A DNA stretch of 50,355 nt from a virus, in IMG/VR virus record IMGVR_UViG_3300045988_089750; one strand, given 5' to 3'. Positions 1-50,355 of this stretch are shown here, piece after piece (the stretch's first letter is position 1; each line of letters begins with the position of its first letter). The notes beneath the pieces are model-generated. The model did not search any database and had not been told where the DNA came from. It saw nothing but the letters and a program-made list of their open reading frames with translations. The translations under genes were made by a program, and so were the position numbers.

Positions 1-99
1 CAATCAATAGCGTAAAATCCCGAATATTCGGCTACTTATGAAAATGTGACAACAGTTGATTATATTTGAACATCTTGGGCTTAGAGCCGTACGCACCGC
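1..99. repeat. Terminal direct repeat, left copy (identical to 50257..50355)
   Basis: Exact 99-bp identity read directly from the sequence. The window begins and ends exactly at the repeat. Confidence 0.95.
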
Positions 100-1939: not shown

Positions 1940-2311
1940 TTAGTAACCTTCCGTTAATAAATCGTTCTTTACCATAGTTTTGATAGCAATAACCCTGCTA
2001 AGGTGTGCTTTATAGTCCGCTACTGCTTTCGCTTTGCGGTCTTCGTCCGTTTCTATACCCAACTGTGCGGCGTAATAGTCGTTAATCAAAGAAAATTCTT
2101 CGGTTTCGTCTATTTCGCTACGGATAACCGCACGTGTAAGGTTTTCGTAGTCCGGCTTCTGCCAAACCTGTACCGTATCGTAGTTGTAAACGGTCTTTTC
2201 GCCCGTTTCCGGGTCTTCTACCTTTTCTTCCACTATGTTGTAGTTATAGTGGTAAGAACCATTACCCAACGGTAAAATAATCGCGGGTCTAACGTCTGAA
2301 CTTGATTTCAT
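1940..2311 (-). CDS. Hypothetical protein
   Basis: ORF packed between the RT and the holin. No recognisable motif. Confidence 0.5.
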   Translation of the reverse strand: MKSSSDVRPAIILPLGNGSYHYNYNIVEEKVEDPETGEKTVYNYDTVQVWQKPDYENLTRAVIRSEIDETEEFSLINDYYAAQLGIETDEDRKAKAVADYKAHLSRVIAIKTMVKNDLLTEGY

Positions 2312-3323
2312 AAGGTGTAATTTTGTTTAACTTGTTAATTAAATATTCGCTGTCGCTGTATTTAGCCCAACCCCACCACGCGGCTAACGTCTGCTTAAAT
2401 TCATCCTCACTTAACGGTTTCTTCCGTTTCCGTAATTTAGCTATCTTACGGCAAAGGTTCTGTTTGATACGCTTCCTAAGCCGTGTTTCGTTCAAATAGA
2501 ATACATAGCCCAAGAAATCAATACCACGCCCGAAGCTGTCGCGGTGGTCGCGTGCCACCGGAAAGACTTGTTTGTTCTGTTTGATTTCCAGCTTTACGTT
2601 AGCCGCCAAATAGCTTTCAAACTCTGCCAGCAAAGCGTGAAGCGTCTTTTTGTCGCTATGTAATACTACAATGTCGTCGGCGTATCTGAAATAGTACCTT
2701 ACCCGCTTTACTTCCTTTACCCAATGGTCGAAGTAGGTAAGTACAAGATTTGCTAAATATTGGCTAAGGTAGTTGCCAATCGGTAAGCCTTCCGCACTGT
2801 CTATAATTTCGTCCAAAAGGTTGAGTAGCCGTGTGTCCTTAATCTTCCGGCGAACAATGGATTTTAGTACGGTGTGGTCTATGGAAGGGTAAAATTTGCG
2901 TATGTCTATTTTCAAGCAATACGCGCAGCCTGCCTTATCTCTGTCGATAACGTGCCTTAACTTATTTGCCGCCGCTTGTATGCCACGCCCTTTGATGCAG
3001 CTATAAGTGTCCGCCGTGAAAATAGACACCCATATAGGCTCTAAAATGTTCATTACGGCGTGATGTACAATCCGGTCGGGAAAGTATGGCAAACGGAAAA
3101 TCTCGCGTTCTTTAGGCTCGTATATCGTAAAGGTACTATATTCCGAAGTTCTGTAAGTTCCTGCTTTCAGTGCTTCGTGCAAAGACAAAAGGTTGGCTTC
3201 CTTGTTGCGGTCGTGTAACTTTACGCCGTAGGAATGTAGTTTGCCCTTGCGGGCGCGTTCGTCCGCAAGGTGCAAATTATCCAAACTTATTATTTTGTCG
3301 TAAAGGTTGCCTAACCTTTTCAT
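2289..3323 (-). CDS. DGR reverse transcriptase
   Basis: RT motifs are present, including IGNYLSQ (2760..2780; the (I/L)GxxxSQ signature of DGR RTs) and YADD (2673..2684). The gene is adjacent to a TR that has adenine-specific VR mismatches. Confidence 0.93.
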   Translation of the reverse strand: MKRLGNLYDKIISLDNLHLADERARKGKLHSYGVKLHDRNKEANLLSLHEALKAGTYRTSEYSTFTIYEPKEREIFRLPYFPDRIVHHAVMNILEPIWVSIFTADTYSCIKGRGIQAAANKLRHVIDRDKAGCAYCLKIDIRKFYPSIDHTVLKSIVRRKIKDTRLLNLLDEIIDSAEGLPIGNYLSQYLANLVLTYFDHWVKEVKRVRYYFRYADDIVVLHSDKKTLHALLAEFESYLAANVKLEIKQNKQVFPVARDHRDSFGRGIDFLGYVFYLNETRLRKRIKQNLCRKIAKLRKRKKPLSEDEFKQTLAAWWGWAKYSDSEYLINKLNKITPYEIKFRR

Positions 3324-3440
3324 AGTAATTTCTTTGCTGATTAAATGGTGTTCTTCGGTTTCCCTACCAAACCCCGTTAATGGTTAATATTTTCCGCCTT
3401 CCGGCGCGGTCTTTGTCCTTATTAGCTTTACAAAAAAATC

Positions 3441-3553
3441 AGTATAGCTGAGAGCCGATATTCGCATTCGTATTCGTAGCCGTGTTATTCGTATTCGCGT
3501 ACGAAAGCCCGGCATTCGCGCTGTTATTCGCATTACCGCCGAACAAGACACCC
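3441..3553 (-). repeat. DGR template repeat (TR)
   Basis: Non-coding 113-bp segment between the accessory ORF and the RT. In the VR frame it reads GVLFGGNANNSANAGLSYANTNNTATNTNANIGSQLY, which is AAY-rich. It aligns without gaps to VR1, VR2 and VR3, and every mismatch is at a TR adenine. Confidence 0.92.
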
Positions 3554-3580
3554 GAAGGGCAAACAACCGTGAAAATCTTC

Positions 3581-3925
3581 CTACTCAAAATAATAGCGCG
3601 TTCCCGAAGCCCGCATAGTTACCTTTCGCGGGAAGGCGTTACGCTTCTTTATTTCCTGCAAAATGTATTTTATTTCGCTGGAATTTGTGAAGAACTTCTT
3701 TGCTTCGCTTTCGGGGTCGTCCTTCTTGAACTTTATTTTCACGAGGAAACGGTTCGCACCGAATTTCGTTTTCACGTCTTCGATAAAATCAATTAACCAA
3801 AACTGCAAATTGATTAGTTTCTGCTGGGTGGTTTCCGGGCAGTTGAAATGTTTGTTCGCTTCGTCCGGCTGGATGTTCAAGAACGAAAGGCTACCGTCAT
3901 CTGTGCTATTATTGTTTGAAGTCAT
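3581..3925 (-). CDS. Hypothetical protein in the DGR accessory (avd) position
   Basis: 114-aa ORF between the target gene and the TR, where Avd normally sits. I do not recognise an Avd-like four-helix-bundle sequence, so this call rests on position only. Confidence 0.45.
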   Translation of the reverse strand: MTSNNNSTDDGSLSFLNIQPDEANKHFNCPETTQQKLINLQFWLIDFIEDVKTKFGANRFLVKIKFKKDDPESEAKKFFTNSSEIKYILQEIKKRNAFPRKVTMRASGTRYYFE

Positions 3926-3968: not shown

Positions 3969-5303
3969 TTACGCGGCGGGGATAAAGCAAAGCCGAGAGC
4001 CGAGATGCGCAGACGTAATCGCAGCCGTGTAATTCGCATACGCGCACGAAAGCCCGGCATACGCGCCGTCATTCGCACTACCGCCGAACAAGAAACCCCT
4101 TTGCGCTACGCCACTGGCTGGTATGTTGGTATAGAAGTAGTCGGCAAAGTAGGTAGTAGAACCTGCGCCCACTTCCGTAGGCATATTTTCCCCGTATTCG
4201 CCTATCATCATGCGCTTAACATAACCTTCCTTGCGTGGAAGTTCGCCACGTTTTACGTAATTGTCATAGTTTGTATCTTGGTAGTTCGCCGGGTTATCGC
4301 AAGTATAGAAAGAACTGATGCCGCCGTCCGCGTCTGATTCAATGGCGCATTTGCATCCGTCCGTCCAACTCCAAACATGCCCGAACGGGTTTTCTATTCC
4401 TCGGTATGAAGGTACTTTTACTTTGGTAACTACGCCCGTGTCGTATTCGTCCGGCATGGTGTATTCTACCACACCCGAAGCGTTACCCAATGAATTGGTA
4501 GTACCGCATGGCACAAACGGATAGTAGCTGTTGAAGGTGTTCCACTTTGTACTGTTAAGCGTCGTAACGCCTGCGCCTAACCCGCCTTGCTTGTACCCTT
4601 CGCTCGTAGGTTGCGCGTTAAAATCAAGCTGGCAGTTAAGGTTAGCGTATTCAATCACGTAAAGCCAATAGGTCGCGTTTTGTGCCGCGTATAAATCGCA
4701 GTTCCATCCTGCGCTGTTCAATCCGGCTGCACCTCTGTTACGTGCGTATTTTCGGAAGTTGGTAAGGCTCGTTTGTGTAGCTGGACGACCTAAGAGGGTT
4801 CTATAAGTTCCGTCCCATGCCGTATTATTGTTTCCGCCCCGGAAAGCAGCCGTAGTATTTACCACACTGGCAAGTTTGGGCGTAGCTGATAAAGTTCTGT
4901 CTATCGTGGCTTCGTATGCGCTCCGGTACATCTTCGGCACTTCGATAAAGCCCGGTAGTTGGTATTGTGATATAAGGCAGGTAAACGTAGTACCGTCAAA
5001 TTCAAACTTACGGTAGTGCTTCGGTATTTCTACCATTACCATGCCGGAAGCTCCGGTAAGGTCTGCCGCTGCCCCGGTGTCCGTCTTCGTACTGTCGGTT
5101 TGATGAAGGTAGGTAACAACCTGCCCGGCATCGTTAAGCAAACAACGGCGCATAAGGGATTGAACCGGGAGCGAAACATGTAGTTCCGATCTTCCTACGC
5201 GTTCTAACGCGGTATCTGCCACGTTTATATTAATCTTTACGCCGTAATAGTAATCATAAGGAAACGCGGGCTTTGTGTTGCCCGCTGCAATAATTAAACC
5301 CAT
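3969..5303 (-). CDS. DGR variable (target) protein with C-type-lectin/FGE-like C-terminal domain; probable receptor-binding tail protein
   Basis: The C-terminus contains NPFGHVWSWTDG ... FLFGGSANDGAYAGLSCAYANYTAAITSAHLGSRLCF and carries VR1. The start is placed at ATG 5303 (MGLIIAAG) to avoid a 70-nt overlap with the upstream gene. The ORF track's alternative start is 5384. Confidence 0.85.
   Translation of the reverse strand: MGLIIAAGNTKPAFPYDYYYGVKININVADTALERVGRSELHVSLPVQSLMRRCLLNDAGQVVTYLHQTDSTKTDTGAAADLTGASGMVMVEIPKHYRKFEFDGTTFTCLISQYQLPGFIEVPKMYRSAYEATIDRTLSATPKLASVVNTTAAFRGGNNNTAWDGTYRTLLGRPATQTSLTNFRKYARNRGAAGLNSAGWNCDLYAAQNATYWLYVIEYANLNCQLDFNAQPTSEGYKQGGLGAGVTTLNSTKWNTFNSYYPFVPCGTTNSLGNASGVVEYTMPDEYDTGVVTKVKVPSYRGIENPFGHVWSWTDGCKCAIESDADGGISSFYTCDNPANYQDTNYDNYVKRGELPRKEGYVKRMMIGEYGENMPTEVGAGSTTYFADYFYTNIPASGVAQRGFLFGGSANDGAYAGLSCAYANYTAAITSAHLGSRLCFIPAA
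3986..4098 (-). repeat. DGR variable repeat VR1 (full length)
   Basis: Gap-free alignment to TR at offset +545. There are 17 mismatches, all at TR adenines, plus one non-A mismatch at the distal boundary (TR 3549). Confidence 0.92.
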
Positions 5304-5314
5304 AGTTATAATTT

Positions 5315-5575
5315 TTAATAGCCCCAAATCAGGGCGGTTGCTGAACTCGTTTCTTTTATCTCTCTGATAATTTCGGGGTTCCATCCCGTTTCAAAGCGCG
5401 TGCTTATAAATTCGCCTTCGGGCATTCCCCAAAGGTTTACTTCCAATACTATCGCCGCTTCGCCATCGTTTTTTATGCAAAAAGGCGTGTCCATTCGGAA
5501 GTTGCCACCGGAAAAATCCACGTTCCCGGCTACCGAAATTTGCGCGCTCACTAAATCGCCGTTTCTATTTTCCAT
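5315..5575 (-). CDS. Hypothetical protein
   Basis: 86-aa ORF between the tail fibre gene and the DGR target. No motif recognised. Confidence 0.5.
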   Translation of the reverse strand: MENRNGDLVSAQISVAGNVDFSGGNFRMDTPFCIKNDGEAAIVLEVNLWGMPEGEFISTRFETGWNPEIIREIKETSSATALIWGY

Positions 5576-30006: not shown

Positions 30007-31563
30007 TTATTGTGGTAATTCGTCGCTTATATGAAGTTCCCCGAAATCTTCTTTAATGTTTTTCGGGTCGCCTTTGTAGAATACTAATACATCATCATGC
30101 AGGTTGCTATTTTCCCGGCTCTTGTTGAATATTTCCAATGCTTTTTTAACCTGCAATTCTTCAAAACTATCTATTGTTTCTTCTACGCTGCCTTTACAGA
30201 AGACTAACACGTTTTGATGAACCTTTCCTACCTTGCGCGTACCGTTAAACTGCCGCCGCACCCTTATTGCAAGGCTGGTTATTTGGTTTACAAGGATAAG
30301 GGAATTGTAATAATGAAGACCGCACCCTGTAAACGCTTCTATTGTGTGGCTTACAAAGTTTCTGTAAATGCCCTTCTTATCCCGTATATCCCCGACGACA
30401 AAAACCGCGAAACGGTTATTCTTCAACCGGGAGCAGGATTGTTTTATAATACGTTTGTACGTTTCAATGAATTGCGCATAGTCCATGTTTGAAATATCGC
30501 GCGGATCATTGCTATATACTTCCAAATCCGCGTAGGGTGGGCAGGAGAAAATCATATCGAAATCGCCACTTATCCCATTCGTGCTAAGAACGTCTTCAAG
30601 CTGGGAACTATCGCCTACCGTCCATTGGGGAAAGAATGGGTAGCTTATGCCTAACACTTCTTCCGCGTTTGCTTTGTTGGCTTTAATTTGGGCTTCGCTT
30701 AAATCATTGCCGACGTAAGGCATGTTCAACTTTGCCGCTACTATACCGCGAACGCTGCCCCCAGCGAACGGGTCTAATATCCGCCCGCCTTCAATGTTGA
30801 ACCAACGGTAAGAAAGTTCGGTTAATACCGGGTCGAATATGCTTGTAGTAGTCATTGTTTTAAGCCCTAAACGCTCCATTTCCGCTATCACTTCTTCCGT
30901 CTGTGGTTCTCTGCCTAAAGTTTCGCGTAATGCGTTCTTGGTATCGTAAAATATTGGCGGTTGCGCTGTCTTTGCAAAAGTCAAATCTTCGCTTCTACCT
31001 TTGTCGCTTTTTATGCCTATTTCCAGCCATGCCCGGCGGCGTTCCTGCCATTCGGCGGTACGGGTATTCAATACAGAAAACGGCGGCAAAATAAAGTCGT
31101 CTTTAAGGCGTTTAAGTTGTTTTTCCGGATTTTCATCCCCTTCGCTGTCTTCCCCAAAATCTACCGGAACGCCCCATGCTTCGTTATCTATACCGAAGTC
31201 TTCTTTTGCCTTAGCTATGGCTTCTTCGTCCCAATCAAGATTAGCGGCGGCTGTCGCGTTGTCTGCTAACGCAAGTTCGCGCCCTTCCTTTGTATCTAAG
31301 TCTATATCGTTGCGCTTTACGGCTACAAGTTCGTTTCCGGTTGTTTCGACTATAATAACATCTTCCATGCCTGCACTTGCAAAGCCTTCGGTAGTCTTGT
31401 TTCCGGCTATAATCTTGTTGTTTTTGTCGAGCAGGATTGAACGCCCCGCGCCGAATGTGCGCAGGCTTTTTTCTATCATGCTTTGTCCGAACTGCGTACC
31501 TTTGTTGAAATTCAAGTCGTCCGGTATAAGGTCTTCTATTTTTGTCTTTTTAATCTTTGCCAT
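30007..31563 (-). CDS. ParB-like nuclease domain / DNA methyltransferase fusion
   Basis: N-terminal ParB-type region (IEDLIPDDLNFNKG ... AGNKTTEG). The C-terminal methyltransferase has motif I (ILDPFAGGSVRG) and motif IV (SCPPY). Confidence 0.8.
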   Translation of the reverse strand: MAKIKKTKIEDLIPDDLNFNKGTQFGQSMIEKSLRTFGAGRSILLDKNNKIIAGNKTTEGFASAGMEDVIIVETTGNELVAVKRNDIDLDTKEGRELALADNATAAANLDWDEEAIAKAKEDFGIDNEAWGVPVDFGEDSEGDENPEKQLKRLKDDFILPPFSVLNTRTAEWQERRRAWLEIGIKSDKGRSEDLTFAKTAQPPIFYDTKNALRETLGREPQTEEVIAEMERLGLKTMTTTSIFDPVLTELSYRWFNIEGGRILDPFAGGSVRGIVAAKLNMPYVGNDLSEAQIKANKANAEEVLGISYPFFPQWTVGDSSQLEDVLSTNGISGDFDMIFSCPPYADLEVYSNDPRDISNMDYAQFIETYKRIIKQSCSRLKNNRFAVFVVGDIRDKKGIYRNFVSHTIEAFTGCGLHYYNSLILVNQITSLAIRVRRQFNGTRKVGKVHQNVLVFCKGSVEETIDSFEELQVKKALEIFNKSRENSNLHDDVLVFYKGDPKNIKEDFGELHISDELPQ

Positions 31564-36031: not shown

Positions 36032-36048
36032 CGTCTTATTTTAATACG
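36032..36048. promoter_or_regulatory. 17-bp palindrome site 6 (CGTCTTA-TTT-TAATACG, 1 mismatch)
   Basis: Overlaps the stop of 36036..36644, 10 bp upstream of ATG 36021. Confidence 0.5.
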
Positions 36049-36644
36049 TCTTTTGGAACACTTAACTTTTTACTCAATAGGGTAGCAACCTTTTCGGCTG
36101 CTGCGCGAAACTCCTTGTTATACTTGTATTCGCTATCGTACCGCCGAAGGTAATAACATATCGTACTTTGGTCGTGTAAGGTTTCTTCTGCTATATGCTG
36201 GGTATTCTCTCCGCGTTTTTTACAATGATGCGCGTAAATCATCCGGGCGTAAACGTGCCAGCGGTTACGGCTGTCTTCTGAAATGGAAGCGAAGCTAACC
36301 CCCATAGCGGTAAGTATAGCCGTTTTTATATCCCGGTGTTTGGGTGGTTTCTCGTAGTTTATAATCAGTCCCAAACCTTCGGCTATGTATAGTTCCAGCC
36401 CTGCGCCCGTGCTGCGTTCCCAATTAGAAAGCATATAAATTGCGTCGCAATCGAGCAGAAGGCGAATATCTACTTTCATTTGTTCCTGCCAGCGCGAACC
36501 CGGCTTTAATTCATACCGCAATGGGTTTACAACCTCGTAACCCTTTGCTCTTAGTTCCGCTTCCGCTTTGCTGAACTTTTCCGCGTATTCGGCTACCGGA
36601 AGTCCGGTTATTTGCCCGCTTATATACACTTTGTGCTTCTTCAT
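36036..36644 (-). CDS. DUF4406 (nucleoside 2-deoxyribosyltransferase-like) domain fused to a DnaA domain-IV-like HTH
   Basis: The N-terminal KVYISGQITGLP...DAIYMLSNWERSTGAGLE resembles DUF4406. The C-terminal VYARMIYAHHCKKRGENTQHIAEETLHDQSTICYYLRRY resembles the DnaA C-terminal DNA-binding pattern. Confidence 0.5.
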   Translation of the reverse strand: MKKHKVYISGQITGLPVAEYAEKFSKAEAELRAKGYEVVNPLRYELKPGSRWQEQMKVDIRLLLDCDAIYMLSNWERSTGAGLELYIAEGLGLIINYEKPPKHRDIKTAILTAMGVSFASISEDSRNRWHVYARMIYAHHCKKRGENTQHIAEETLHDQSTICYYLRRYDSEYKYNKEFRAAAEKVATLLSKKLSVPKDVLK

Positions 36645-39112: not shown

Positions 39113-39381
39113 AGCTTATCCGCGTTAAAGTCTTTTGACGGTTTGAAAACAACAACCTTGCGGGCTGGAACTAATATGGTTTCGCCCGTATTTATGTTCC
39201 GGGCTGGTTTCGCCTTGCGTTGCTTCGTTTGAAAAGTACCGAAGCCGCGAATAGTTACCGTATCGCCGCCCGTCACTTCGTCCCGAATAACATCAAATGT
39301 ACGTTCTAATACTTCCTTTACTTGATAGCTGTTTAATCCGGTCTGTTCCGCTACCGAGTTCACTAATTCCTGTTTTGTCAT
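39109..39381 (-). CDS. HU/IHF-family DNA-binding protein
   Basis: MTKQELVNSVAEQTGL...VTIRGFGTFQTKQRKAKPARNINTGETILVPARKVVVFKPSK is the classic HU-fold pattern. Confidence 0.9.
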   Translation of the reverse strand: MTKQELVNSVAEQTGLNSYQVKEVLERTFDVIRDEVTGGDTVTIRGFGTFQTKQRKAKPARNINTGETILVPARKVVVFKPSKDFNADKL

Positions 39382-39926
39382 AGCTTCTCAATTAAAATTT
39401 GTTCGTATAAGTCTGTAAATTGGTTGCCCGCATACCGTGCCAAACGTGAAGCGTAGAAGCAAAGCCGAGAGCCGAGATGCGCATACGAATCCGAAGCCGC
39501 GTCACTCGTACCCGCGCACGAAAGCCCGGCAGAACCTTTGCCTTTCGCGTTTTCTTGTATATAGAAGTAAGGGTAGTATTTGTATTGGTCGGTATTGTTC
39601 CAATCCGGTTTCCAGCCTTCGTTAAGTGCTGCGGTAATAGTTTCCAATTTGCGGCGTGCTATTTCGTCCGATCTGAAGCCTTGCGCCTTCGCATTTTGTT
39701 CGTTTATCGGTTCTACGCCTAATACCTTACATGCGTCTTCGTAGGTCTTTACCCGGTCGGTTATTTCCTCGTAGTCTTCTTCCTTGTAGAAGTAATCGAA
39801 AATACTACCGTTCCCTTCGTCTTCGGTAAGTTTCTTTACGGTGTCTTGCGCTTCTTCTACGTTGTCGTATCTGCCTTGTAAATTCTCGTTCCCGTTCTCT
39901 TTTCTGTATAAACAAATCTTTTTCAT
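39378..39926 (-). CDS. Remote DGR target candidate 2 (small early-region protein with embedded VR2)
   Basis: 182 aa with no signal peptide. It contains GSAGLSCAGTSDAASDSYAHLGSRLCF, encoded by VR2, and is a paralog of 41946..42683. Confidence 0.8.
   Translation of the reverse strand: MKKICLYRKENGNENLQGRYDNVEEAQDTVKKLTEDEGNGSIFDYFYKEEDYEEITDRVKTYEDACKVLGVEPINEQNAKAQGFRSDEIARRKLETITAALNEGWKPDWNNTDQYKYYPYFYIQENAKGKGSAGLSCAGTSDAASDSYAHLGSRLCFYASRLARYAGNQFTDLYEQILIEKL
39458..39533 (-). repeat. DGR variable repeat VR2 (remote, truncated)
   Basis: Gap-free alignment to TR 3441..3514 at offset +36017. There are 15 mismatches, all at TR adenines. Homology ends just past the A-free block CGAAAGCCCGGCA. 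Confidence 0.85.
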
Positions 39927-40351: not shown

Positions 40352-41104
40352 TTAAAAAGGTGTTTTGTTGAAACTAATCCGTAGTCCGGGTTTTGCGACG
40401 TGTACCGTTTTTCCGGTGGCTTTTGCTATTCCGTCCCGGAAGGCTACCGCGTCGCCGTTCCCTTCGCTTATATGTATCAATACTATGTTATTAACCCGTG
40501 TTAGGTCGTTAGCCTTCAACGCGTCCAAACAAGTATAGTAGCTTAAATGGCTTCTCCGTACTCGTTCTTTCAATACTTCCGGTATATAACCTTCTGTTAC
40601 ATTGCGTTCCAATATGTCCGGGTCGTAGTTGCATTCAATTAATATATTGTTCAACCCGGCAAATGTGCAAGGCAAATAGAAAGTATCGGTAGCAAACAAT
40701 ACGCCGCCCGTTTCTTCATGCCAGACGTAGAAGCCCAACGGTTCGCGGCTGTCGTGCTTCGTGGGAAAGGGAATGATAGTAAAACCGCCCAACCGTAAAT
40801 GCTGGTAACTTCCGTTTTCCATCCTTATGTGGGTCGGTCGCCAGCAAGAATTAATCTTAGCGGCTTCTATCGTGCCTTTGGAAGCGTAAACCGGAACAAC
40901 GTAGTTTAAAACCTCATTAATACGCCCGGCATGGTCGCCATGTTCATGGGTAATGAGGCAGCCTACTATTTTCTTTACGTTGTTGCCCAACGCTGCTAAT
41001 ACCTTCTTGAATGGTATTCCAGCTTCAAGTAGAAGGGCTTCGCCCGCGTTTTGCAAAACGTAGGCGTTACCCTCTGAACTTGAACCTAATACGGTTAATT
41101 CCAT
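40352..41104 (-). CDS. MBL-fold metallo-hydrolase
   Basis: HxHxDH motif (ITHEHGDHAG) in the typical N-terminal context. Confidence 0.8.
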   Translation of the reverse strand: MELTVLGSSSEGNAYVLQNAGEALLLEAGIPFKKVLAALGNNVKKIVGCLITHEHGDHAGRINEVLNYVVPVYASKGTIEAAKINSCWRPTHIRMENGSYQHLRLGGFTIIPFPTKHDSREPLGFYVWHEETGGVLFATDTFYLPCTFAGLNNILIECNYDPDILERNVTEGYIPEVLKERVRRSHLSYYTCLDALKANDLTRVNNIVLIHISEGNGDAVAFRDGIAKATGKTVHVAKPGLRISFNKTPF

Positions 41105-41945: not shown

Positions 41946-42683
41946 TTAATTGTTGTTCATTATGTCCTTTAAAAAGTCGTCTATTCCGCCGCCTTTAATC
42001 ATCTTTTCAAAAGCTATTTCGCGGGTTGCTCGTTCTACTATCGGCGCGGACTGCTTTCCGGTAAGAAGTTCTTTCAAGCCCTTTATTATGGCTCCATAAT
42101 TTCCGCAAAAACCTACCATTACTCCGGTACTTCCTTCGCCATTTTTATCCTTTGTATCAGTGTCGCAACCTACTACGATAAGACCGCGTGAACTGCTTCC
42201 GTTACAGAATGGTACTAAATGCTTTTGCATTACTTCTGTGGTGGTCTTCAAAAAGTCGCTTTGGGGTTCTTCTTGGCTGCTTTCCGCTTGTTGTGTTTCT
42301 CCGTTTCCCGAAGCAAAGCAATAATAGTCACGGTACAAGTCCGCAAAGTGTTCGGCTGCGTATTTCGCGAGCGCGGACGTGGGAAAGCAAAGCCGAGAGC
42401 CGAAATGCGCATGCGTACCCGTAGCCGCGTAAGACGTATTCGCGCACGAAAGCCCGGCATTTACATAGCGGAATAGCGGGTAATACTTCCATTCGTTTTT
42501 GTCGTCCCAATTCGGTTTCCAGCCGTTATTAAGCGCACGGGTTATTACTGTCAGCTTGTGGTAGGCTAACATACTTCTTTGGTCTTCCTTCGGGAAAATG
42601 TTAAATACTTCTTCGTTAATCGGTTGAATGTTCAAAACTCTACAAGCGTCCTCGTAAGACACGATTTTCTTTTCTGTATTCAT
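41946..42683 (-). CDS. Remote DGR target candidate 3 (early-region protein with embedded VR3)
   Basis: 245 aa with no signal peptide. It contains NAGLSCANTSYAATGTHAHFGSRLCF, encoded by VR3. Its N-terminal half is paralogous to 39378..39926. Confidence 0.8.
   Translation of the reverse strand: MNTEKKIVSYEDACRVLNIQPINEEVFNIFPKEDQRSMLAYHKLTVITRALNNGWKPNWDDKNEWKYYPLFRYVNAGLSCANTSYAATGTHAHFGSRLCFPTSALAKYAAEHFADLYRDYYCFASGNGETQQAESSQEEPQSDFLKTTTEVMQKHLVPFCNGSSSRGLIVVGCDTDTKDKNGEGSTGVMVGFCGNYGAIIKGLKELLTGKQSAPIVERATREIAFEKMIKGGGIDDFLKDIMNNN
42386..42461 (-). repeat. DGR variable repeat VR3 (remote, truncated)
   Basis: Gap-free alignment to TR 3441..3516 at offset +38945. There are 13 mismatches, all at TR adenines. 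Confidence 0.85.
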
Positions 42684-42717: not shown

Positions 42718-44769
42718 TTATTCTACTTTGAAGTCATCGGTAGTTACTACCAACTTTACAAGCTGGCTAACAACCGGGATAAACTTGTTAATACTTTCTG
42801 CGTTATCCACGAAAATAGGCGCACTAACGTTATGGAACGTGCAAAGGGTATTTATTATGTCAAGCCCGGCATTAACTTTCCCGGCTTGGTTCTTATCCGC
42901 GTATTTTACCCCGTCAATAAGGCAAATGCAATCCGGTTCTTTTTCGCCGTTTACAAGCGTCTTGTACATCTTGAACTGAACCCGGCTAAACAATCCGTTT
43001 ACGCGGCGTTCCACTTCCGTCATACGGGCTTTTATCAAGTCGGCTATTACTATTTCGCAGCCTTGTATTTCGGCGCGTTCCTGCGCCAGTTTTGCGGCTT
43101 CCCCGTTTAGTTCAGCTATGCGCTTTTCGTTGGCTTCTATAATTGCGCGAAGGTTTAGCTTACGTTTTACTTCATCAAGCCGGGCAGTAAGGTTGGCTTT
43201 CCGTTGGCGTATCTCTGTTCTGTTTGCCGTGTCTTCCGCGTTGAAGATTGGAAGTTGTTCGGAAAGTTCCTTTATTTCTTTTTCAAGCGCGACCCATTCC
43301 GGCAGGTCTTCTCCGTTAATATCCGGTTCGGTATTTACGCGGGGATTGTCGTTCAAAACCTTTTGCAACGCTTCACGATCTTCTTTCGCCTTTGTTACGG
43401 CGGTAGTATGGCTGGTTTCCAATTCGGCTAACGCTTTATCTATCCGGCTGGCTTCTTCTTCCTGCGATGCTATCATTTCGTTTAACCGCTGACCGTCCGT
43501 GTTAATTTTGTTAAGGCGTTCTTCCCGGTCTGCGTAGAATTTTTCGCGGGCGGCTTCCCGGTCGGTGTTGTACTTAGCTAATGCTACCGGGTCGGCGCAA
43601 GCGTGCTTGAACAACGGGCAAACAAGGCTTTCCGTAGCGGTAAATTCTTCGGCGTTTACTTTGTACCATCTTTTGCGTAGTTCGTTCTGCATTTGCTTGT
43701 AGCCTTCTATCGTGCTTTGCGTCCGTTTCTTCTCGTTCGTCAAACGGTCGTATTCGCTACGGTAACGGCTGGCTTCGCTGCGTTCGTCGTTTATAACCTG
43801 CTGTAACTTGCGGTCGGCATTATTGTAGGTTTCGTTCTTTTTGAACGCTTCGTTCCTTGCCGTTTCCTTTGCCTTAAATACTAAAGCGTGCTGGCTGCTA
43901 CGTTTGTCATTTATGGCGGTTTGTACCTTAGCGGCAGCTTCATAGGCGATACGGTTGGCTTCCGCTGCTGATGCGGCGGCTTCGTCTATGTCGTTCAATT
44001 CTTTTGTAAGCTGTTCCTTCTCGGTATTAAGGGCGGCATAATCCGGTGTCAGCGGGGTAGCGCGCGTTATTTCGTCAATACGTGTAGGTATCTTTTCCAG
44101 TTCCTTCGTTATCTTCTCCTTTTGCGCTGAAATCTCGCGTTTATAGTCTTCTACGGTTTTCCCGCTAAGCTGTTCTATCAAAGTGGCAAAGGCTGTATTG
44201 CCCTTCGCTATGTCTTCGTAGCTTACTCCCCCGGCAATCTGCAAAAGCATTTCACGTTGTGCCGTCCAATGAAGGGAAAGGAAATAGTAGGGGTTGGTAA
44301 TCATCTTGAAAACGGCTTCGGGTATAATCGCGTTTATACGTTCGTCGTATTCGCTTTTTGTTTTTAATGGGACTCCGTTATAGAAGTAGTCGGTATGGTG
44401 TCCCTTTAACTTCCTTTCCGTCTTTCCCTTCTCTGTTTTCCATTCTTCAACCAATACGCGGCGAAGTTCTACGGTTTCAACGCTTCCCGTTTCGGTATCT
44501 ATTATTTCTAACGTTCCGGCTACTTCGTGTTCAAGGTCGGGAATAAAATTGCCTTCCGCGTCGTTGGTCTTAATTCCGAATTTGCTATCTACATTCCCTT
44601 CGCTGTCTTTGCCCCAAAGAAGCCATGTAAAAGCGTCCATAATGGTAGTTTTTCCCGTACCGTTCCGTCCGCTGATGGTTGTAACTGTGTCGTTAAAGTC
44701 TATAACGACGTTACGCAAGCCTTTGAAATTAGCAAGGCTTAAACGTTTGATGATTGCTTTTTTGCTCAT
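42718..44769 (-). CDS. SMC/SbcC/RecF-like AAA ATPase with long coiled coil
   Basis: N-terminal Walker A (ISGRNGTGKTTIMDA), about 450 aa of coiled coil, and a C-terminal Walker B-like PIFVDNAESI. The start is set at ATG 44769 (MSKKAII), directly after the upstream stop. Confidence 0.8.
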   Translation of the reverse strand: MSKKAIIKRLSLANFKGLRNVVIDFNDTVTTISGRNGTGKTTIMDAFTWLLWGKDSEGNVDSKFGIKTNDAEGNFIPDLEHEVAGTLEIIDTETGSVETVELRRVLVEEWKTEKGKTERKLKGHHTDYFYNGVPLKTKSEYDERINAIIPEAVFKMITNPYYFLSLHWTAQREMLLQIAGGVSYEDIAKGNTAFATLIEQLSGKTVEDYKREISAQKEKITKELEKIPTRIDEITRATPLTPDYAALNTEKEQLTKELNDIDEAAASAAEANRIAYEAAAKVQTAINDKRSSQHALVFKAKETARNEAFKKNETYNNADRKLQQVINDERSEASRYRSEYDRLTNEKKRTQSTIEGYKQMQNELRKRWYKVNAEEFTATESLVCPLFKHACADPVALAKYNTDREAAREKFYADREERLNKINTDGQRLNEMIASQEEEASRIDKALAELETSHTTAVTKAKEDREALQKVLNDNPRVNTEPDINGEDLPEWVALEKEIKELSEQLPIFNAEDTANRTEIRQRKANLTARLDEVKRKLNLRAIIEANEKRIAELNGEAAKLAQERAEIQGCEIVIADLIKARMTEVERRVNGLFSRVQFKMYKTLVNGEKEPDCICLIDGVKYADKNQAGKVNAGLDIINTLCTFHNVSAPIFVDNAESINKFIPVVSQLVKLVVTTDDFKVE

Positions 44770-44770
44770 A

Positions 44771-45451
44771 TTACTGATATTTTTGAAGTGAATAAAATCC
44801 CGCGTCAAGACTTACGGTTATTTTCTCTAATTTCTTCTTTTGGGCTGCATAGGAGCGCGCTATGCTGTTCATGTAGCCCGTAAGGTTTACTATGTAGGTG
44901 CGCTTCTCTATGATGCAGTTTAGGGCTACGTCTAAGACGGCTTCCCAAACTTCCCGTACGCGTTCCGGCTGTACCGCTATTCTGTGCCGGATGATGTATT
45001 CCGTAACTTTTGCTTTACGGCTTTCAATCTCGGTTATTACCATTGAAAAATCCCCCGTTCGGTATGCCTGCAACACAATCGCGCAAAATTGGATGGCATT
45101 CAAATATTCTTCTTGTATGTTGGAAACGCTTTTTTTCTTTCTCAAACGTTCCCTAATCCGTTCTTGGAATGTATTACGGTCTATTAGTTCTATCTGCCCG
45201 CTGGCTGTTTCAACTATACAGTATTTTCGGCTAATCTCGCGCGGGTCTATGTTCTTTTCCGCCGAATAGAGGAAACGTTTAAGGCTTCCGGTGTATTTTT
45301 CCCCGTTATCCGCCTTTAATATCAATGCGTTATTGCATGGTTTCAATATACGCGGTTCTACTCCCCGGCAGTAGCTTCGTATCTGCCTGCTTTCCCTATT
45401 TATTTCGTATTTAGAAAAGCCGGGAATGTTAATCCAAATATTATTAATCAT
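44771..45451 (-). CDS. NUMOD4-motif DNA-binding protein
   Basis: The N-terminal WINIPGFSKYEINRESRQIRS resembles the NUMOD4 motif. The rest is unassigned. Confidence 0.45.
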   Translation of the reverse strand: MINNIWINIPGFSKYEINRESRQIRSYCRGVEPRILKPCNNALILKADNGEKYTGSLKRFLYSAEKNIDPREISRKYCIVETASGQIELIDRNTFQERIRERLRKKKSVSNIQEEYLNAIQFCAIVLQAYRTGDFSMVITEIESRKAKVTEYIIRHRIAVQPERVREVWEAVLDVALNCIIEKRTYIVNLTGYMNSIARSYAAQKKKLEKITVSLDAGFYSLQKYQ

Positions 45452-48609: not shown

Positions 48610-48896
48610 CTAAACCTTCGCCTATAAGCGATGGGATAAACCGTCGTTTCTTTGAAGCTATTGAAGCGATTGTTAGTTTGGGTAAGGTTAGCGCGTTGGA
48701 GGCGTTTTGCACGCTTTACGATTTGAGTGCGCCACGTTATAGGGAAATGCGGCTTACTTATGGTGTTTCTCCGAAGCCCGGCTACCAATCACGCTACAAG
48801 AATATAGAAGTAGAAGCGATTTATTCGCTGGTCGTTAATTATCCTATTTCCTCACGCTGGCTTATAACCGGGCGCGGTAAAATGCTTATCGAATAA
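48594..48896 (+). CDS. HTH-like DNA-binding protein adjacent to integrase (possible excision/regulatory factor)
   Basis: INRRFFEAIEAI...SRWLITGRGKM resembles the same repressor-like family. Its stop overlaps the integrase ATG (TAATG). Confidence 0.5.
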   Translation: MPRTIAKPSPISDGINRRFFEAIEAIVSLGKVSALEAFCTLYDLSAPRYREMRLTYGVSPKPGYQSRYKNIEVEAIYSLVVNYPISSRWLITGRGKMLIE

Positions 48897-50203
48897 TGAA
48901 GTTTTCTATTAAGTACCAATTATCGCCGCGAACGGAAGGGGATAGGCTTACGGAAAACGTGCCTATACGCTTACGGGTGTCTTTTGCTGGTATTCGTGTA
49001 GATTTACGTTCCGGCTATGTAATAGACGCGGAAAAGTGGGATAATAATAACGCCTGCGTGAAAGTCGGCGCAAAGAATAGTTTCAACCAAACGGCAGGCG
49101 AAATAAATCGCGCTCTAACAAACCTTTCTTCTATTGTTGAAGAAGTCCTAACCCGGTTTGAACTTGACAACCGCAGAACGCCAACTGCGAAAGAATTTAA
49201 GGCAGCTTTTGATGAAGCAACCGGAAGGAAGAAGAAGGACGTTACGCCGGACTTCTTCACGGTCTTCGACAAATTTGTAGTAGAAGCTGGTACGGCTAAT
49301 AGCTGGGTTCCGGCTACTTATACGAAGTTTAGCAGTTTGCGTAAGCATCTATACGCATATATGCCACAGCAAATACTAAATCTACTAACAAAGGAAAACC
49401 TACAAGGCTTTGTTAAATACCTGCAAGATGCGGGGCAAATGAATACGACCGTAAGCAAGTATATGAGTTATGTACGTTGGTTTCTCCGTTGGGCTTGTAA
49501 TAACGGCTACTATAATGGGCTTTTGCATGAACAATATAAACCGCGTTTCAAGGGGATAGACTGCAAAGAAGTTATCTTCCTTTCATGGGAAGAACTGCAA
49601 CACTTTCTAAACTATCAATTCCCGGAAAACCGCAGTTCTTTGTCGTGCGTACGTGATGTGTTTTGCTTTTGCTGCTTTACTGGGTTGCGCTATTCCGATG
49701 TAGCCCGGCTACGTCCCTGCGATGTCAAACGGACAACAAACAAACCTTTTATATCCATCGTTACTCTGAAAACCGAAGACCGTTTGCATATAGAACTGAA
49801 CAAATACGCGCTTCAAATACTTGACAAATACAAAAACATCAAATTCCCCAAAGGGTTAGCCCTTCCGGTTATCAGCAATGCGAAAATGAACGAATACCTT
49901 AAAGAAGCTGCCGAAATAGCTGGAATAAAAGAACCCGTTAGAATAGTGTTTTTCAAAGGAAACAAACGTTATGAAAATGTATTGCCGAAGTGCGAACTTC
50001 TTACTACTCATAGCGGAAGAAAAACGTTTATCTGCAACGCTATAAGGCTGGGTATTCCAACTAACGTTATTATGGAATGGACGGGACATAGTGATTACAA
50101 AGCAATGAAGCCGTATATAAAAATAGTAGATGCGGTTAAAGAGGAAAACATGTCTAAATTTGACACCTTTTCCGAAGAAGAAAAGGGCAATAGTAAAAAA
50201 TAG
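48896..50203 (+). CDS. int: Tyrosine recombinase / phage integrase
   Basis: Bacteroidales-type integrase with an N-terminal arm-binding region. The catalytic region includes GLRYSD, HSGRKTF and GHSDYKAMKPYIK (R...HxxR...H...Y). Confidence 0.9.
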   Translation: MKFSIKYQLSPRTEGDRLTENVPIRLRVSFAGIRVDLRSGYVIDAEKWDNNNACVKVGAKNSFNQTAGEINRALTNLSSIVEEVLTRFELDNRRTPTAKEFKAAFDEATGRKKKDVTPDFFTVFDKFVVEAGTANSWVPATYTKFSSLRKHLYAYMPQQILNLLTKENLQGFVKYLQDAGQMNTTVSKYMSYVRWFLRWACNNGYYNGLLHEQYKPRFKGIDCKEVIFLSWEELQHFLNYQFPENRSSLSCVRDVFCFCCFTGLRYSDVARLRPCDVKRTTNKPFISIVTLKTEDRLHIELNKYALQILDKYKNIKFPKGLALPVISNAKMNEYLKEAAEIAGIKEPVRIVFFKGNKRYENVLPKCELLTTHSGRKTFICNAIRLGIPTNVIMEWTGHSDYKAMKPYIKIVDAVKEENMSKFDTFSEEEKGNSKK

Positions 50204-50256: not shown

Positions 50257-50355
50257 CAATCAATAGCGTAAAATCCCGAATATTCGGCTACTTATGAAAA
50301 TGTGACAACAGTTGATTATATTTGAACATCTTGGGCTTAGAGCCGTACGCACCGC
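50257..50355. repeat. Terminal direct repeat, right copy (identical to 1..99)
   Basis: Exact 99-bp identity with the window start. Confidence 0.95.

What the first reader, a model, noticed from the sequence alone, without database searches (positions are those of the whole stretch)
42386..42461. Second remote truncated variable repeat (VR3) in a paralogous early-region protein
Bases 42386..42461 align gap-free to TR 3441..3516. There are 13 mismatches, all at TR adenines. The encoded peptide is NAGLSCANTSYAATGTHAHFGSRLCF, within ORF 41946..42683, which lies between the SMC-like ATPase and the RecT-like gene. With VR1 and VR2, that makes 45 of 45 TR/VR differences adenine-specific. One RT/TR therefore appears to serve three targets in two functionally different genome regions.
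Basis: seen in the sequence. Interest (0 to 1): 0.9.

Follow-up and report, generated by a model that had tools for sequence, protein, structure and literature searches.

The report
Third, distant target of phage retroelement
A temperate Bacteroides phage uses one mutagenic reverse-transcriptase cassette to keep rewriting a tail protein and also a 26-residue loop in two small early-gene proteins 11-14 kb away; this third site is real and active in nature, but phages that do this, with the same protein family, have already been described.

Summary
Window 42386..42461 matches the template repeat (TR) 3441..3516 without gaps. All 13 mismatches are at TR adenines on the coding (-) strand.

VR3 is an active target of a diversity-generating retroelement (DGR), not a relic.
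- In more than 100 orthologues and 19 related DNA loci, variation sits almost only at TR-adenine positions. Eighteen A sites carry 3-4 alleles.
- 34 gene pairs are identical over the 662 nt outside VR3 but differ by a median of 12 nt inside it.
- In related phage species the gene flanks are only 60-91% identical, yet all 53 non-A bases of VR3 still equal this TR.
- The ORF is intact in 20 of 20 loci.

"Truncated" is misleading. T2 and T3 belong to phrog_11581. In 54 other phage contigs, 1-3 genes of this family lie directly beside a related RT and TR, with a median VR of 75 nt. The tail protein's VR1 is the extended one.

LoVEphage, which Dahlman 2025 cites to Benler 2021, the paper that described Quimbyvirus, has its distal VR in a homologue of T3. 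Non-adjacent phage DGR targets have been reported since 2017. This is therefore a new member of a known kind.

The function of T3 is unknown, and its predicted fold matches no solved C-type lectin.

The parts
2289..3323 (-). DGR reverse transcriptase (344 aa)
   Evidence: Pfam RVT_1 at 1.1e-19 and phrog_1423 at 1.6e-127. It is 52-65% identical to RTs that sit next to TR/VR pairs in 64 IMG/VR loci.
3441..3548 (-). Template repeat (TR). All 108 nt are used by VR1; only the 3' 76 nt (3441..3516) are used by VR2 and VR3.
   Evidence: The TR is 100% identical in four related contigs while VR1 varies. Its 3' end lies 118 nt upstream of the RT start; the median in family cassettes is 105 nt.
3581..3925 (-). 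Accessory ORF between target 1 and the TR (114 aa, phrog_19665). It is not recognisable as Avd.
   Evidence: no Pfam or NCBIfam hit.
3969..5384 (-). Target 1 (T1), a tail protein of 471 aa, with VR1 at 3986..4093 at its C-terminus
   Evidence: phrog_5302 tail protein at 1e-132. 17 of 17 mismatches are at TR adenines. VR1 varies among relatives.
39378..39926 (-). Target 2 (T2), a 182-aa early protein of family phrog_11581, with VR2 at 39458..39533
   Evidence: 80 orthologues vary only at TR-adenine codons.
41946..42683 (-). Target 3 (T3), 245 aa: an N-terminal phrog_11581 domain (aa 5-121) plus an extra C-terminal domain (aa ~140-245)
   Evidence: The ORF is intact in 20 of 20 loci, with 27 synonymous and 20 non-synonymous variable columns outside the VR.
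42446..42461 (-). 5' homology block of VR3 (AATGCCGGGCTTTCGT), the likely zone of 5' cDNA crossover
   Evidence: Invariant in the 20 DNA sequences compared. Only 4 of 107 orthologues vary at N75.
42404..42445 (-). Hypervariable core of VR3 (gene nt 239-280)
   Evidence: All 18 TR-adenine sites here carry 2-4 alleles among 20 sequences (16 of them 3-4). The non-A sites are invariant apart from singletons. Entropy is about 3 bits at the AAY codons.
42386..42403 (-). 3' invariant block of VR3 (TCGGCTCTCGGCTTTGCT). It is IMH-like and differs from the TR at three adenines (G, T, G).
   Evidence: The same three differences occur in VR1, VR2 and VR3 and in all relatives. One of them, CTA to CTT, is synonymous, so selection on the protein cannot explain it.
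42718..44808 (-). Context: SbcC/SMC-like ATPase directly upstream of T3 in the same-strand early gene block
   Evidence: phrog_77 at 3.6e-63; Pfam AAA_23 and SMC_N.
40352..41104 (-). Context: metallo-beta-lactamase-fold hydrolase between T3 and T2, with a weak Apyc1-like hit
   Evidence: phrog_392 at 2.5e-73. Pfam Lactamase_B, and PF23023 at 1.5e-5, which is below its cut-off.

Best explanation
VR3 is a genuine, currently active variable repeat of the phage's single DGR.

Mechanism (inferred from the BPP-1 model): the RT (2289..3323) copies TR RNA (3441..3548) into cDNA and misincorporates opposite adenines. The cDNA then replaces the homologous stretch of three genes in trans: the tail protein T1 next to the cassette, and the paralogous early proteins T2 and T3, which lie 14 and 11 kb away on the circular 50.3-kb genome.

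Shown at VR3: information transfer covers gene nt 239-280, and only rarely nt 290. The 3' 18-nt block carries three fixed VR-versus-TR differences, as an IMH/IMH* pair would. The 5' end has only a 14-16-nt GC-rich homology block.

T2 and T3 belong to a large family of small phage proteins (phrog_11581). In many other phages these proteins are the targets that sit directly beside a related RT, with a VR of about 75 nt. This phage therefore pairs a tail-fibre target, which has a 32-nt longer VR, with two classical family targets placed in its replication and recombination module.

Inferred with low certainty: T3 is a cytoplasmic early protein whose hypervariable 26-residue loop binds a variable host or competitor factor, so it acts in phage-host conflict rather than adsorption.
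For: The sequence match and its base specificity are.

Population evidence at VR3:
- Among 107 orthologues, mean column entropy is 1.05 bits in aa 75-100 and 0.086 elsewhere. The variable columns are exactly the TR codons that contain A.
- In 20 DNA sequences, 18 of the 23 TR-A sites carry 2-4 alleles (16 of them 3-4), while non-A sites are invariant.
- 34 gene pairs with no differences in 662 flanking nt differ by a median of 12 nt in the 76-nt VR.
- Two clusters alone hold 14,478 and 5,589 distinct T3 sequences.
- The TR is identical in four relatives.
- VR1, VR2 and VR3 of one genome differ from each other at 12 of 23 A sites, so they diversify independently.

Concerted evolution with the TR: in related species whose T3 is 76% or 57% identical in protein, with gene flanks 60-91% identical in DNA, all 53 non-A bases of VR3 equal this TR.

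Design and integrity of the gene: no TR codon can become a stop codon by A substitution, and all three VRs share one reading frame. The ORF is intact in 20 of 20 loci, and synonymous changes outnumber non-synonymous ones outside the VR.

Family evidence: in 54 of 58 IMG/VR loci, 101 of 109 loops of family genes match a TR upstream of a related RT with A-only mismatches. Control scans using C, G or T as the wildcard gave 0, 4 and 0 hits. The distal VR of LoVEphage lies in a T3 homologue.

Action in trans is established for BPP-1 (cited in PMC5758913).
Against: - No read-level data were available. Heterogeneity within one population, and dependence on this RT, are therefore inferred and not shown.
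- No Avd-like accessory protein is recognisable.
- No convincing hairpin or cruciform lies downstream of any of the VRs.
- The functional part is weak. There is no domain hit and no structural neighbour. A role in the virion cannot be excluded.
Confidence: 0.9

Rival explanations
1. Only VR1 is a direct DGR target. VR3 (and VR2) obtain their A-site variation second-hand, by homologous recombination or gene conversion with VR1.
For: The three VRs share 53 identical non-A bases and the same 3' block, which would be enough homology for conversion.
Against: Within a genome, VR1, VR2 and VR3 are as different from one another as unrelated alleles: 12 of 23 A sites in the window, and 12-15 differences in two other contigs. 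In 54 other phages the same protein family is the only, cassette-adjacent DGR target, so the family is directly competent for homing. Each VR keeps its own IMH-like end.
Confidence: 0.04
2. VR3 is diversified, but only as a tolerated off-target of a tail-fibre DGR. The T3 loop has no function that benefits from variation.
For: No function is known for T3. The VR loop is modelled with low confidence.
Against: The arrangement of two paralogues is syntenic in species with only 57% T3 identity. The ORF is always intact. Identical TR codons show different residue spectra at different positions: ACG at aa 83 gives T 87, A 15, but at aa 86 gives A 82, S 12, T 12; Ser is rare at aa 80. That indicates selection on the loop. 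A whole RT lineage has these proteins as its main targets.
Confidence: 0.05
3. The match is a chance or low-complexity similarity, or a decayed relic of an old duplication that is no longer rewritten.
For: None beyond the short length of 76 nt.
Against: P is about 1.8e-7 for the base specificity alone. There are only three such diagonals in 50 kb. The site is hypervariable between otherwise identical genes. The non-A skeleton is perfectly conserved across diverged species.
Confidence: 0.01

Closest known systems
LoVEphage DGR, a Bacteroides/Phocaeicola temperate phage (Dahlman 2025, PMC12629997, cites it to Benler 2021, PMC8008677, the paper that describes Quimbyvirus, which I take to be the same phage)
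   Same: One RT/TR serves a tail-module target next to the cassette and a distal target among non-structural, counter-defence-type genes. I verified in OY725593.1 that TR 41084-41196 matches VR1 in the tail protein and a distal VR inside CDS 57015-57599. That CDS is a phrog_11581-family homologue of T3 with 31.8% identity.
   Different: LoVEphage is a 71-kb phage with no nucleotide similarity to this one. In the LoVEphage record, ORFs overlap downstream of the annotated RT, and Benler 2021 reports frameshifted RT ORFs for Quimbyvirus; here the RT is a single ORF. LoVEphage has one distal target whose VR spans the full 113 nt, whereas this phage has two distal paralogues that use only the 3' 76 nt of the TR. 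T3 also carries an extra C-terminal domain.
Non-adjacent targets of phage-associated DGRs (Wu et al. 2018, PMC5758913), the Toutatisvirus remote VR 17.5 kb away (bioRxiv 10.1101/2024.10.15.618418), and phages with two targets including tentaclins (PMC10743442)
   Same: A single TR serves more than one gene in the same prophage, one beside the cassette and one kilobases away. The VR can lie near the N-terminus of a two-domain protein.
   Different: Those second targets are DUF6273/C-lectin receptor-binding-type proteins of Firmicutes phages. Here the remote targets are small early-region proteins with no lectin signature, and there are two of them.
Bordetella phage BPP-1 DGR (Mtd / TR / Brt / Avd)
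   Same: Adenine-specific TR-to-VR transfer. Boundary effects occur at both ends. The VR and TR differ at their 3' ends (IMH versus IMH*). The machinery can act in trans. TR codons of the AAY type cannot become stop codons.
   Different: BPP-1 has one target beside the cassette, a C-type-lectin fold, an Avd protein and a downstream GC-rich hairpin. None of the last three could be recognised here.
Cassette-adjacent DGRs of IMG/VR phages with 1-3 tandem phrog_11581 genes
   Same: Same target family. The VR length is the same (median 75 nt against 76 nt). The RT lineage is the same (52-65% identity). The spacing from TR to RT is similar (median 105 nt against 118 nt).
   Different: In those phages the family genes sit immediately upstream of the TR and RT. 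In L139 they lie between a primase and the head genes, and no tail target lies within 10 kb. Here the family genes are 11-14 kb away and a tail protein occupies the position beside the cassette.

Membership tests
Diversity-generating retroelement (DGR) target / variable repeat | A TR/VR pair whose differences are confined to TR adenines | tested here: met
   13 of 13 mismatches are at TR adenines. Of the two wildcards tested, only the TR-adenine one (+ strand T) finds the three VRs.
Diversity-generating retroelement (DGR) target / variable repeat | A DGR-type reverse transcriptase with the TR immediately upstream | tested here: met
   RVT_1 and phrog_1423. The TR ends 118 nt before the RT start. 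The RT is 52-65% identical to RTs of 54 verified TR/VR cassettes.
Diversity-generating retroelement (DGR) target / variable repeat | The VR lies in frame inside an ORF, and the TR codons cannot yield stop codons on A substitution | tested here: met
   The ORF is intact in 20 of 20 relatives.
Diversity-generating retroelement (DGR) target / variable repeat | Ongoing adenine-directed diversification in populations while the TR stays constant | tested here: met
   This evidence is between samples. Within-sample and RT-dependent evidence could not be obtained with these tools.
Diversity-generating retroelement (DGR) target / variable repeat | An IMH at the VR 3' end that differs from IMH* in the TR and marks the transfer boundary | tested here: met
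   Three fixed differences (G, T, G) occur in all VRs of all relatives, and one of them is synonymous. Their role in function was not tested.
Diversity-generating retroelement (DGR) target / variable repeat | An Avd-type accessory protein | tested here: not met
   ORF 3581..3925 and the ORFs downstream of the RT have no Avd, Pfam or NCBIfam hit. Dahlman 2025 Table S3 also lists 'NA' for Avd in several Bacteroides DGR phages.
Diversity-generating retroelement (DGR) target / variable repeat | A hairpin or cruciform downstream of the VR (BPP-1 type) | tested here: not met
   The regions downstream of the VRs fold no better than shuffled sequence, with z from -0.4 to +0.4.
C-type-lectin-fold DGR variable proteins (Mtd / TvpA / FGE type) | The VR is displayed on a C-lectin fold recognisable by structure or profile | tested here: inconclusive
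phrog_11581 (small phage proteins of unknown function) | A significant match to the family profile over the conserved domain of about 115 aa | tested here: met
   T3 scores 8.5e-37 and T2 2e-37. T3 has 2,136 matches at E <= 0.001 among the 50%-identity cluster representatives, mostly over its aa 5-121. The motifs ALNEGWKPDW, KYYPWF and GSRLCFKS..LA.YAG.QF are present.

The most novel reading that the evidence does not exclude
The phrog_11581 domain is a DGR scaffold that has not been recognised as such and is neither C-type lectin nor Ig-like. A whole lineage of phage DGRs exists mainly to diversify these small, cytoplasmic, early-expressed proteins, which act as hypervariable binders of host defence or competitor factors. 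In this phage the tail-fibre target is the secondary acquisition: it shares with the family only the 27-residue VR module, which may have been transplanted by retrohoming.
Probability: 0.2. Interest if true: 0.75.

Novelty: new member of a known kind. Interest (0 to 1): 0.4.

Why it matters
The result confirms that a gut-phage DGR diversifies non-structural early proteins as intensively as its tail fibre. Public data hold tens of thousands of distinct T3 alleles. The target family is large (2,136 matches at E <= 0.001 among 50%-identity cluster representatives), absent from Pfam and NCBIfam, and repeatedly coupled to DGRs.

That makes T2 and T3 a tractable entry point to an open question: what phage DGRs do beyond host-range switching. 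A cultured lysogen appears to exist, because an orthologue of T2 lies in a B. thetaiotaomicron chromosome.

The locus also offers a natural test of the minimal requirements for homing: 14-16 nt of 5' homology, an 18-nt 3' block, no recognisable Avd and no hairpin.

The basic phenomenon, one TR serving adjacent and distal targets in a phage, is already published.

Tried and rejected
- Megablast of 29 kb of the window against 50,697 phage records found no match. The phage is not a deposited one. The nearest RTs are from crAss-like phages, at under 58% identity.
- Pfam, NCBIfam and PDB-sequence searches of T1, T2, T3, the accessory ORF and the alleged RecT gave nothing usable.
- AF2 on the single T3 sequence was useless, with pLDDT 41.
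- Foldseek against the PDB gave no hit. Against BFVD it returned only uncharacterised gut-phage proteins.
- A search for inverted repeats or hairpins downstream of the VRs was not significant.
- Rfam and tRNA scans of the window found nothing.
- Tentaclins were considered and rejected, because they have a different domain (DUF6273), different size and different hosts.
- I tested whether the recurrent 12.5-kb Logan contigs break at VRs. They do not: they run from the integrase end to about window position 37.8 kb.
- Alignment A3 was too diverse for a locus search, and the contig carrying P0259 was too short.
- A first crude fixed-window TR scan gave no clean hits. It was replaced by a scan for runs with mismatches at A only, with base controls.

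Full report
**1. Observation**

The stretch 42386..42461 aligns without gaps to 3441..3516. 63 of 76 bases are identical, and all 13 mismatches are at + strand T, which is adenine on the coding (-) strand. TR adenines occupy 23 of the 76 positions, so the base specificity alone has P = 1.8e-7.

I scanned the whole window with TR adenines as wildcards. Besides the TR itself, only three diagonals appeared:
- VR1, 3986..4093
- VR2, 39458..39533
- VR3, 42386..42461

The other wildcard tested (+ strand A) and the opposite strand gave nothing. Mismatch counts are 17 of 17 for VR1, 15-17 of 15-17 for VR2 and 13 of 13 for VR3.

**2. The system**

All parts are on the - strand and form a DGR:
- T1, a tail protein (phrog_5302), with VR1 at its C-terminus.
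- A 114-aa accessory ORF that is not recognisable as Avd.
- The TR, 3441..3548.
- A 118-nt spacer.
- The RT, 2289..3323 (RVT_1, phrog_1423).

Holin and endolysin genes follow. Tail, tape-measure and head genes lie upstream, and an integrase is at 48896..50203. The window carries a 99-nt terminal direct repeat, so it is a circular 50,256-bp genome. VR3 is therefore about 11.2 kb from the TR, and VR2 about 14.3 kb.

An orthologue of T2 is encoded in a 6.17-Mb Bacteroides thetaiotaomicron chromosome. MAG contigs of about 50 kb carry the same phage. It is a temperate Bacteroides phage with no nucleotide match in the phage collection.

**3. Is VR3 alive?**

Protein level:
- More than 100 orthologues, 92-96% identical, were recovered.
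- Column entropy is about 3 bits at exactly the TR AAY codons (aa 82, 84, 85, 89, 91, 93). It is intermediate at the TAC, ACG and ATC codons and about zero elsewhere.
- Mean entropy is 1.05 bits inside the VR and 0.086 outside it.
- Two 90% clusters alone hold 14,478 and 5,589 distinct sequences.

DNA level (19 related loci plus the window):
- 18 of the 23 TR-adenine positions carry 2-4 alleles, 16 of them 3-4. Non-adenine positions are invariant apart from singletons.
- Outside the VR there are only biallelic lineage SNPs.
- 34 pairs of genes are identical over all 662 flanking nt yet differ by a median of 12 nt in the 76-nt VR.
- The TR is 100% identical in four relatives, while their VR1 copies differ at A sites.
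- Within one genome the three VRs differ from one another at about 12 of 23 A sites. This argues against second-hand gene conversion.

The strongest evidence comes from two related phage species with the same synteny (SMC-like ATPase, T3, 275-aa ORF, MBL hydrolase, 131-aa ORF, T2, HU). Their T3 is only 76% and 57% identical in protein, and the gene flanks are 60-91% identical in DNA. All 53 non-adenine bases of VR3 are nevertheless identical to this window's TR, and 52 of 53 in VR2. That is the signature of continual overwriting from a conserved template.

The ORF is not a pseudogene:
- It is intact in 20 of 20 loci, and synonymous variable columns outnumber non-synonymous ones, 27 to 20, outside the VR.
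- No TR codon can become a stop codon by adenine substitution.
- Identical TR codons show different residue spectra at different positions. ACG gives mostly T at aa 83 but mostly A at aa 86. This indicates selection on the loop.

**4. Boundaries and mechanism**

Variation spans gene nt 239-280 (window 42404..42445). The last three TR adenines are G, T and G in VR1, VR2, VR3 and every relative. One of these changes, CTA to CTT, is synonymous for Leu, so its fixation cannot be selection on the protein. The 3' 18 nt therefore behave as an IMH that is not overwritten. The first of the three (CAG to CGG, Q97R) is occasionally reset: 2 Q and 1 L among 104 proteins, and 1 CCG among the DNA loci. This places the crossover interval there.

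At the 5' end the homology with the TR is only 14-16 nt (AATGCCGGGCTTTCGT). The first two adenines almost never vary. These boundary effects match those described for BPP-1 and for Bacteroides DGRs (bioRxiv 10.1101/2024.11.15.621889). Action in trans is established for BPP-1 (cited in PMC5758913).

No significant hairpin follows any VR. No Avd is recognisable. Both are departures from the BPP-1 paradigm, although neither was tested functionally.

**5. What the target is**

T2 and T3 are paralogues with 48% identity over 120 aa. Both belong to phrog_11581, a family of unknown function. The shared domain, T3 aa 5-121, has 2,136 matches at E <= 0.001 among the 50%-identity cluster representatives. 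Its conserved motifs are ALNEGWKPDW, KYYPWF, a variable loop, and GSRLCFKS.ELA.YAG.QF. Pfam and NCBIfam have no model for it.

I searched IMG/VR with a family alignment and obtained 80 loci:
- 64 of them encode an RT that is 52-65% identical to this one, placed 0.4-1.1 kb downstream of 1-3 tandem family genes.
- In 54 of the 58 testable loci, 101 of 109 family loops match a TR just upstream of the RT. The matches run 45-89 nt (median 75) and have mismatches at adenines only (median 15).
- The same scan with C, G or T as the wildcard gave 0, 4 and 0 hits.
- Some loci also carry extra copies kilobases away (L117, L129).

The family is therefore a widespread DGR target that normally sits beside the cassette, and 76 nt is its normal VR length. 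VR3 is not a truncated copy; the tail protein's VR1 is extended by 32 nt at its 5' end.

In L139 the cassette sits between a primase and the head protease. In LoVEphage the homologue sits among methyltransferases. Here it lies between an SbcC-like ATPase and an MBL-fold hydrolase. In all three phages the location is non-structural. T2 and T3 have no evident signal peptide, judged by inspecting.

Profile-profile comparison shows that the family and the T1-type tail domain are related only over the 27-residue VR segment, with probability 95.9%. An AF2 model built on the family alignment has pLDDT 80.9. It predicts a helical N-domain with the VR on a low-confidence loop, and a separate alpha/beta C-domain. 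Foldseek finds no neighbour in the PDB (best E 2.1) and only uncharacterised gut-phage proteins in BFVD. Membership of the C-type-lectin class is therefore not shown.

**6. Comparison with what is known**

- Non-adjacent targets within prophages were catalogued in 2017-2018 (PMC5758913).
- Quimbyvirus was reported to have a second, distal, non-structural DGR target (PMC8008677).
- Four Bacteroidota prophage species with a distal second VR were reported in 2025 (PMC12629997).
- Toutatisvirus has a VR 17.5 kb from its TR (bioRxiv 10.1101/2024.10.15.618418).

I verified in LoVEphage record OY725593.1 that its TR matches both the tail protein and a distal VR lying inside the T3 homologue. Dahlman 2025 cites LoVEphage to Benler 2021, the paper that describes Quimbyvirus. 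The same protein family is thus already a published distal target, although it has been described only as lectin-containing or unknown.

What is particular here:
- There are two distal paralogues as well as the tail target.
- The distal VRs use only the 3' 76 nt of the TR.
- T3 has an extra C-terminal domain.
- The population evidence is very deep.

**7. Verdict**

It is a new member of a known kind, of moderate interest. The family-level finding, an RT lineage whose main targets are small early proteins with no recognisable lectin fold, is the part most worth following up.

Noticed in passing
window 1..99 and 50257..50355: The two ends share an exact 99-nt direct repeat. The window is therefore a circularly assembled genome of 50,256 bp, and distances should be measured around the circle.
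   Followed up: yes
L104-L183 (IMG/VR loci), e.g. L139:10010-12089: Many phages carry a compact cassette of 1-3 tandem phrog_11581 genes, then a TR, then an RT. 101 of 109 loops are A-only matches to the TR. Copies per locus: 1 in 14 loci, 2 in 33 and 3 in 7. L117/L121/L125 and L129 also have extra copies 4-9 kb away.
   Followed up: partly
window 40352..41104 (-): A metallo-beta-lactamase-fold hydrolase lies between T3 and T2. It has a sub-threshold match to the anti-Pycsar Apyc1 family (PF23023, 1.5e-5, 25 bits against a cut-off of 50). It is syntenic in the related species and could be a counter-defence gene.
   Followed up: no
It is conserved next to T3 in the related species.
   Followed up: partly
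L102 (Logan contig, 12,566 bp), corresponding to about window 37.8 kb to 50.3 kb: Dozens of independent assemblies give contigs of nearly the same length (about 12.53-12.59 kb). They run from the integrase end to inside the DUF6291/primosomal gene. This suggests a recurrent mosaic or assembly break point at about 37.8 kb, not at a VR.
   Followed up: partly
window 3384..3566 (-): The 60-aa ORF in the ORF list overlaps the TR in another frame. It is most likely an artefact of the repeat and not a gene.
   Followed up: no
window 30007..31563 (-): A 518-aa protein combines a ParB-like nuclease N-terminus with a DNA methyltransferase domain (phrog_498, phrog_620). It could be an anti-restriction function and is conserved in relatives (PF01555 in L184 and L186).
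   Followed up: no
window 42394 (gene nt 290, codon 97 of T3): The first IMH-like adenine difference (CAG in the TR, CGG in the VR) is occasionally reset. Among the orthologues, 2 have Q and 1 has L; one DNA locus has CCG. This marks the 3' crossover interval.
   Followed up: partly
window 36036..36644 (-): An unusual fusion of a DUF4406 / nucleoside 2-deoxyribosyltransferase-like domain with a DnaA C-terminal helix-turn-helix.
   Followed up: no
P0091, P0094-P0102 (T3 orthologues of 233 aa): A subset of orthologues is called 12 residues shorter at one end (94% coverage). This probably reflects an alternative start codon call and was not examined.
   Followed up: no
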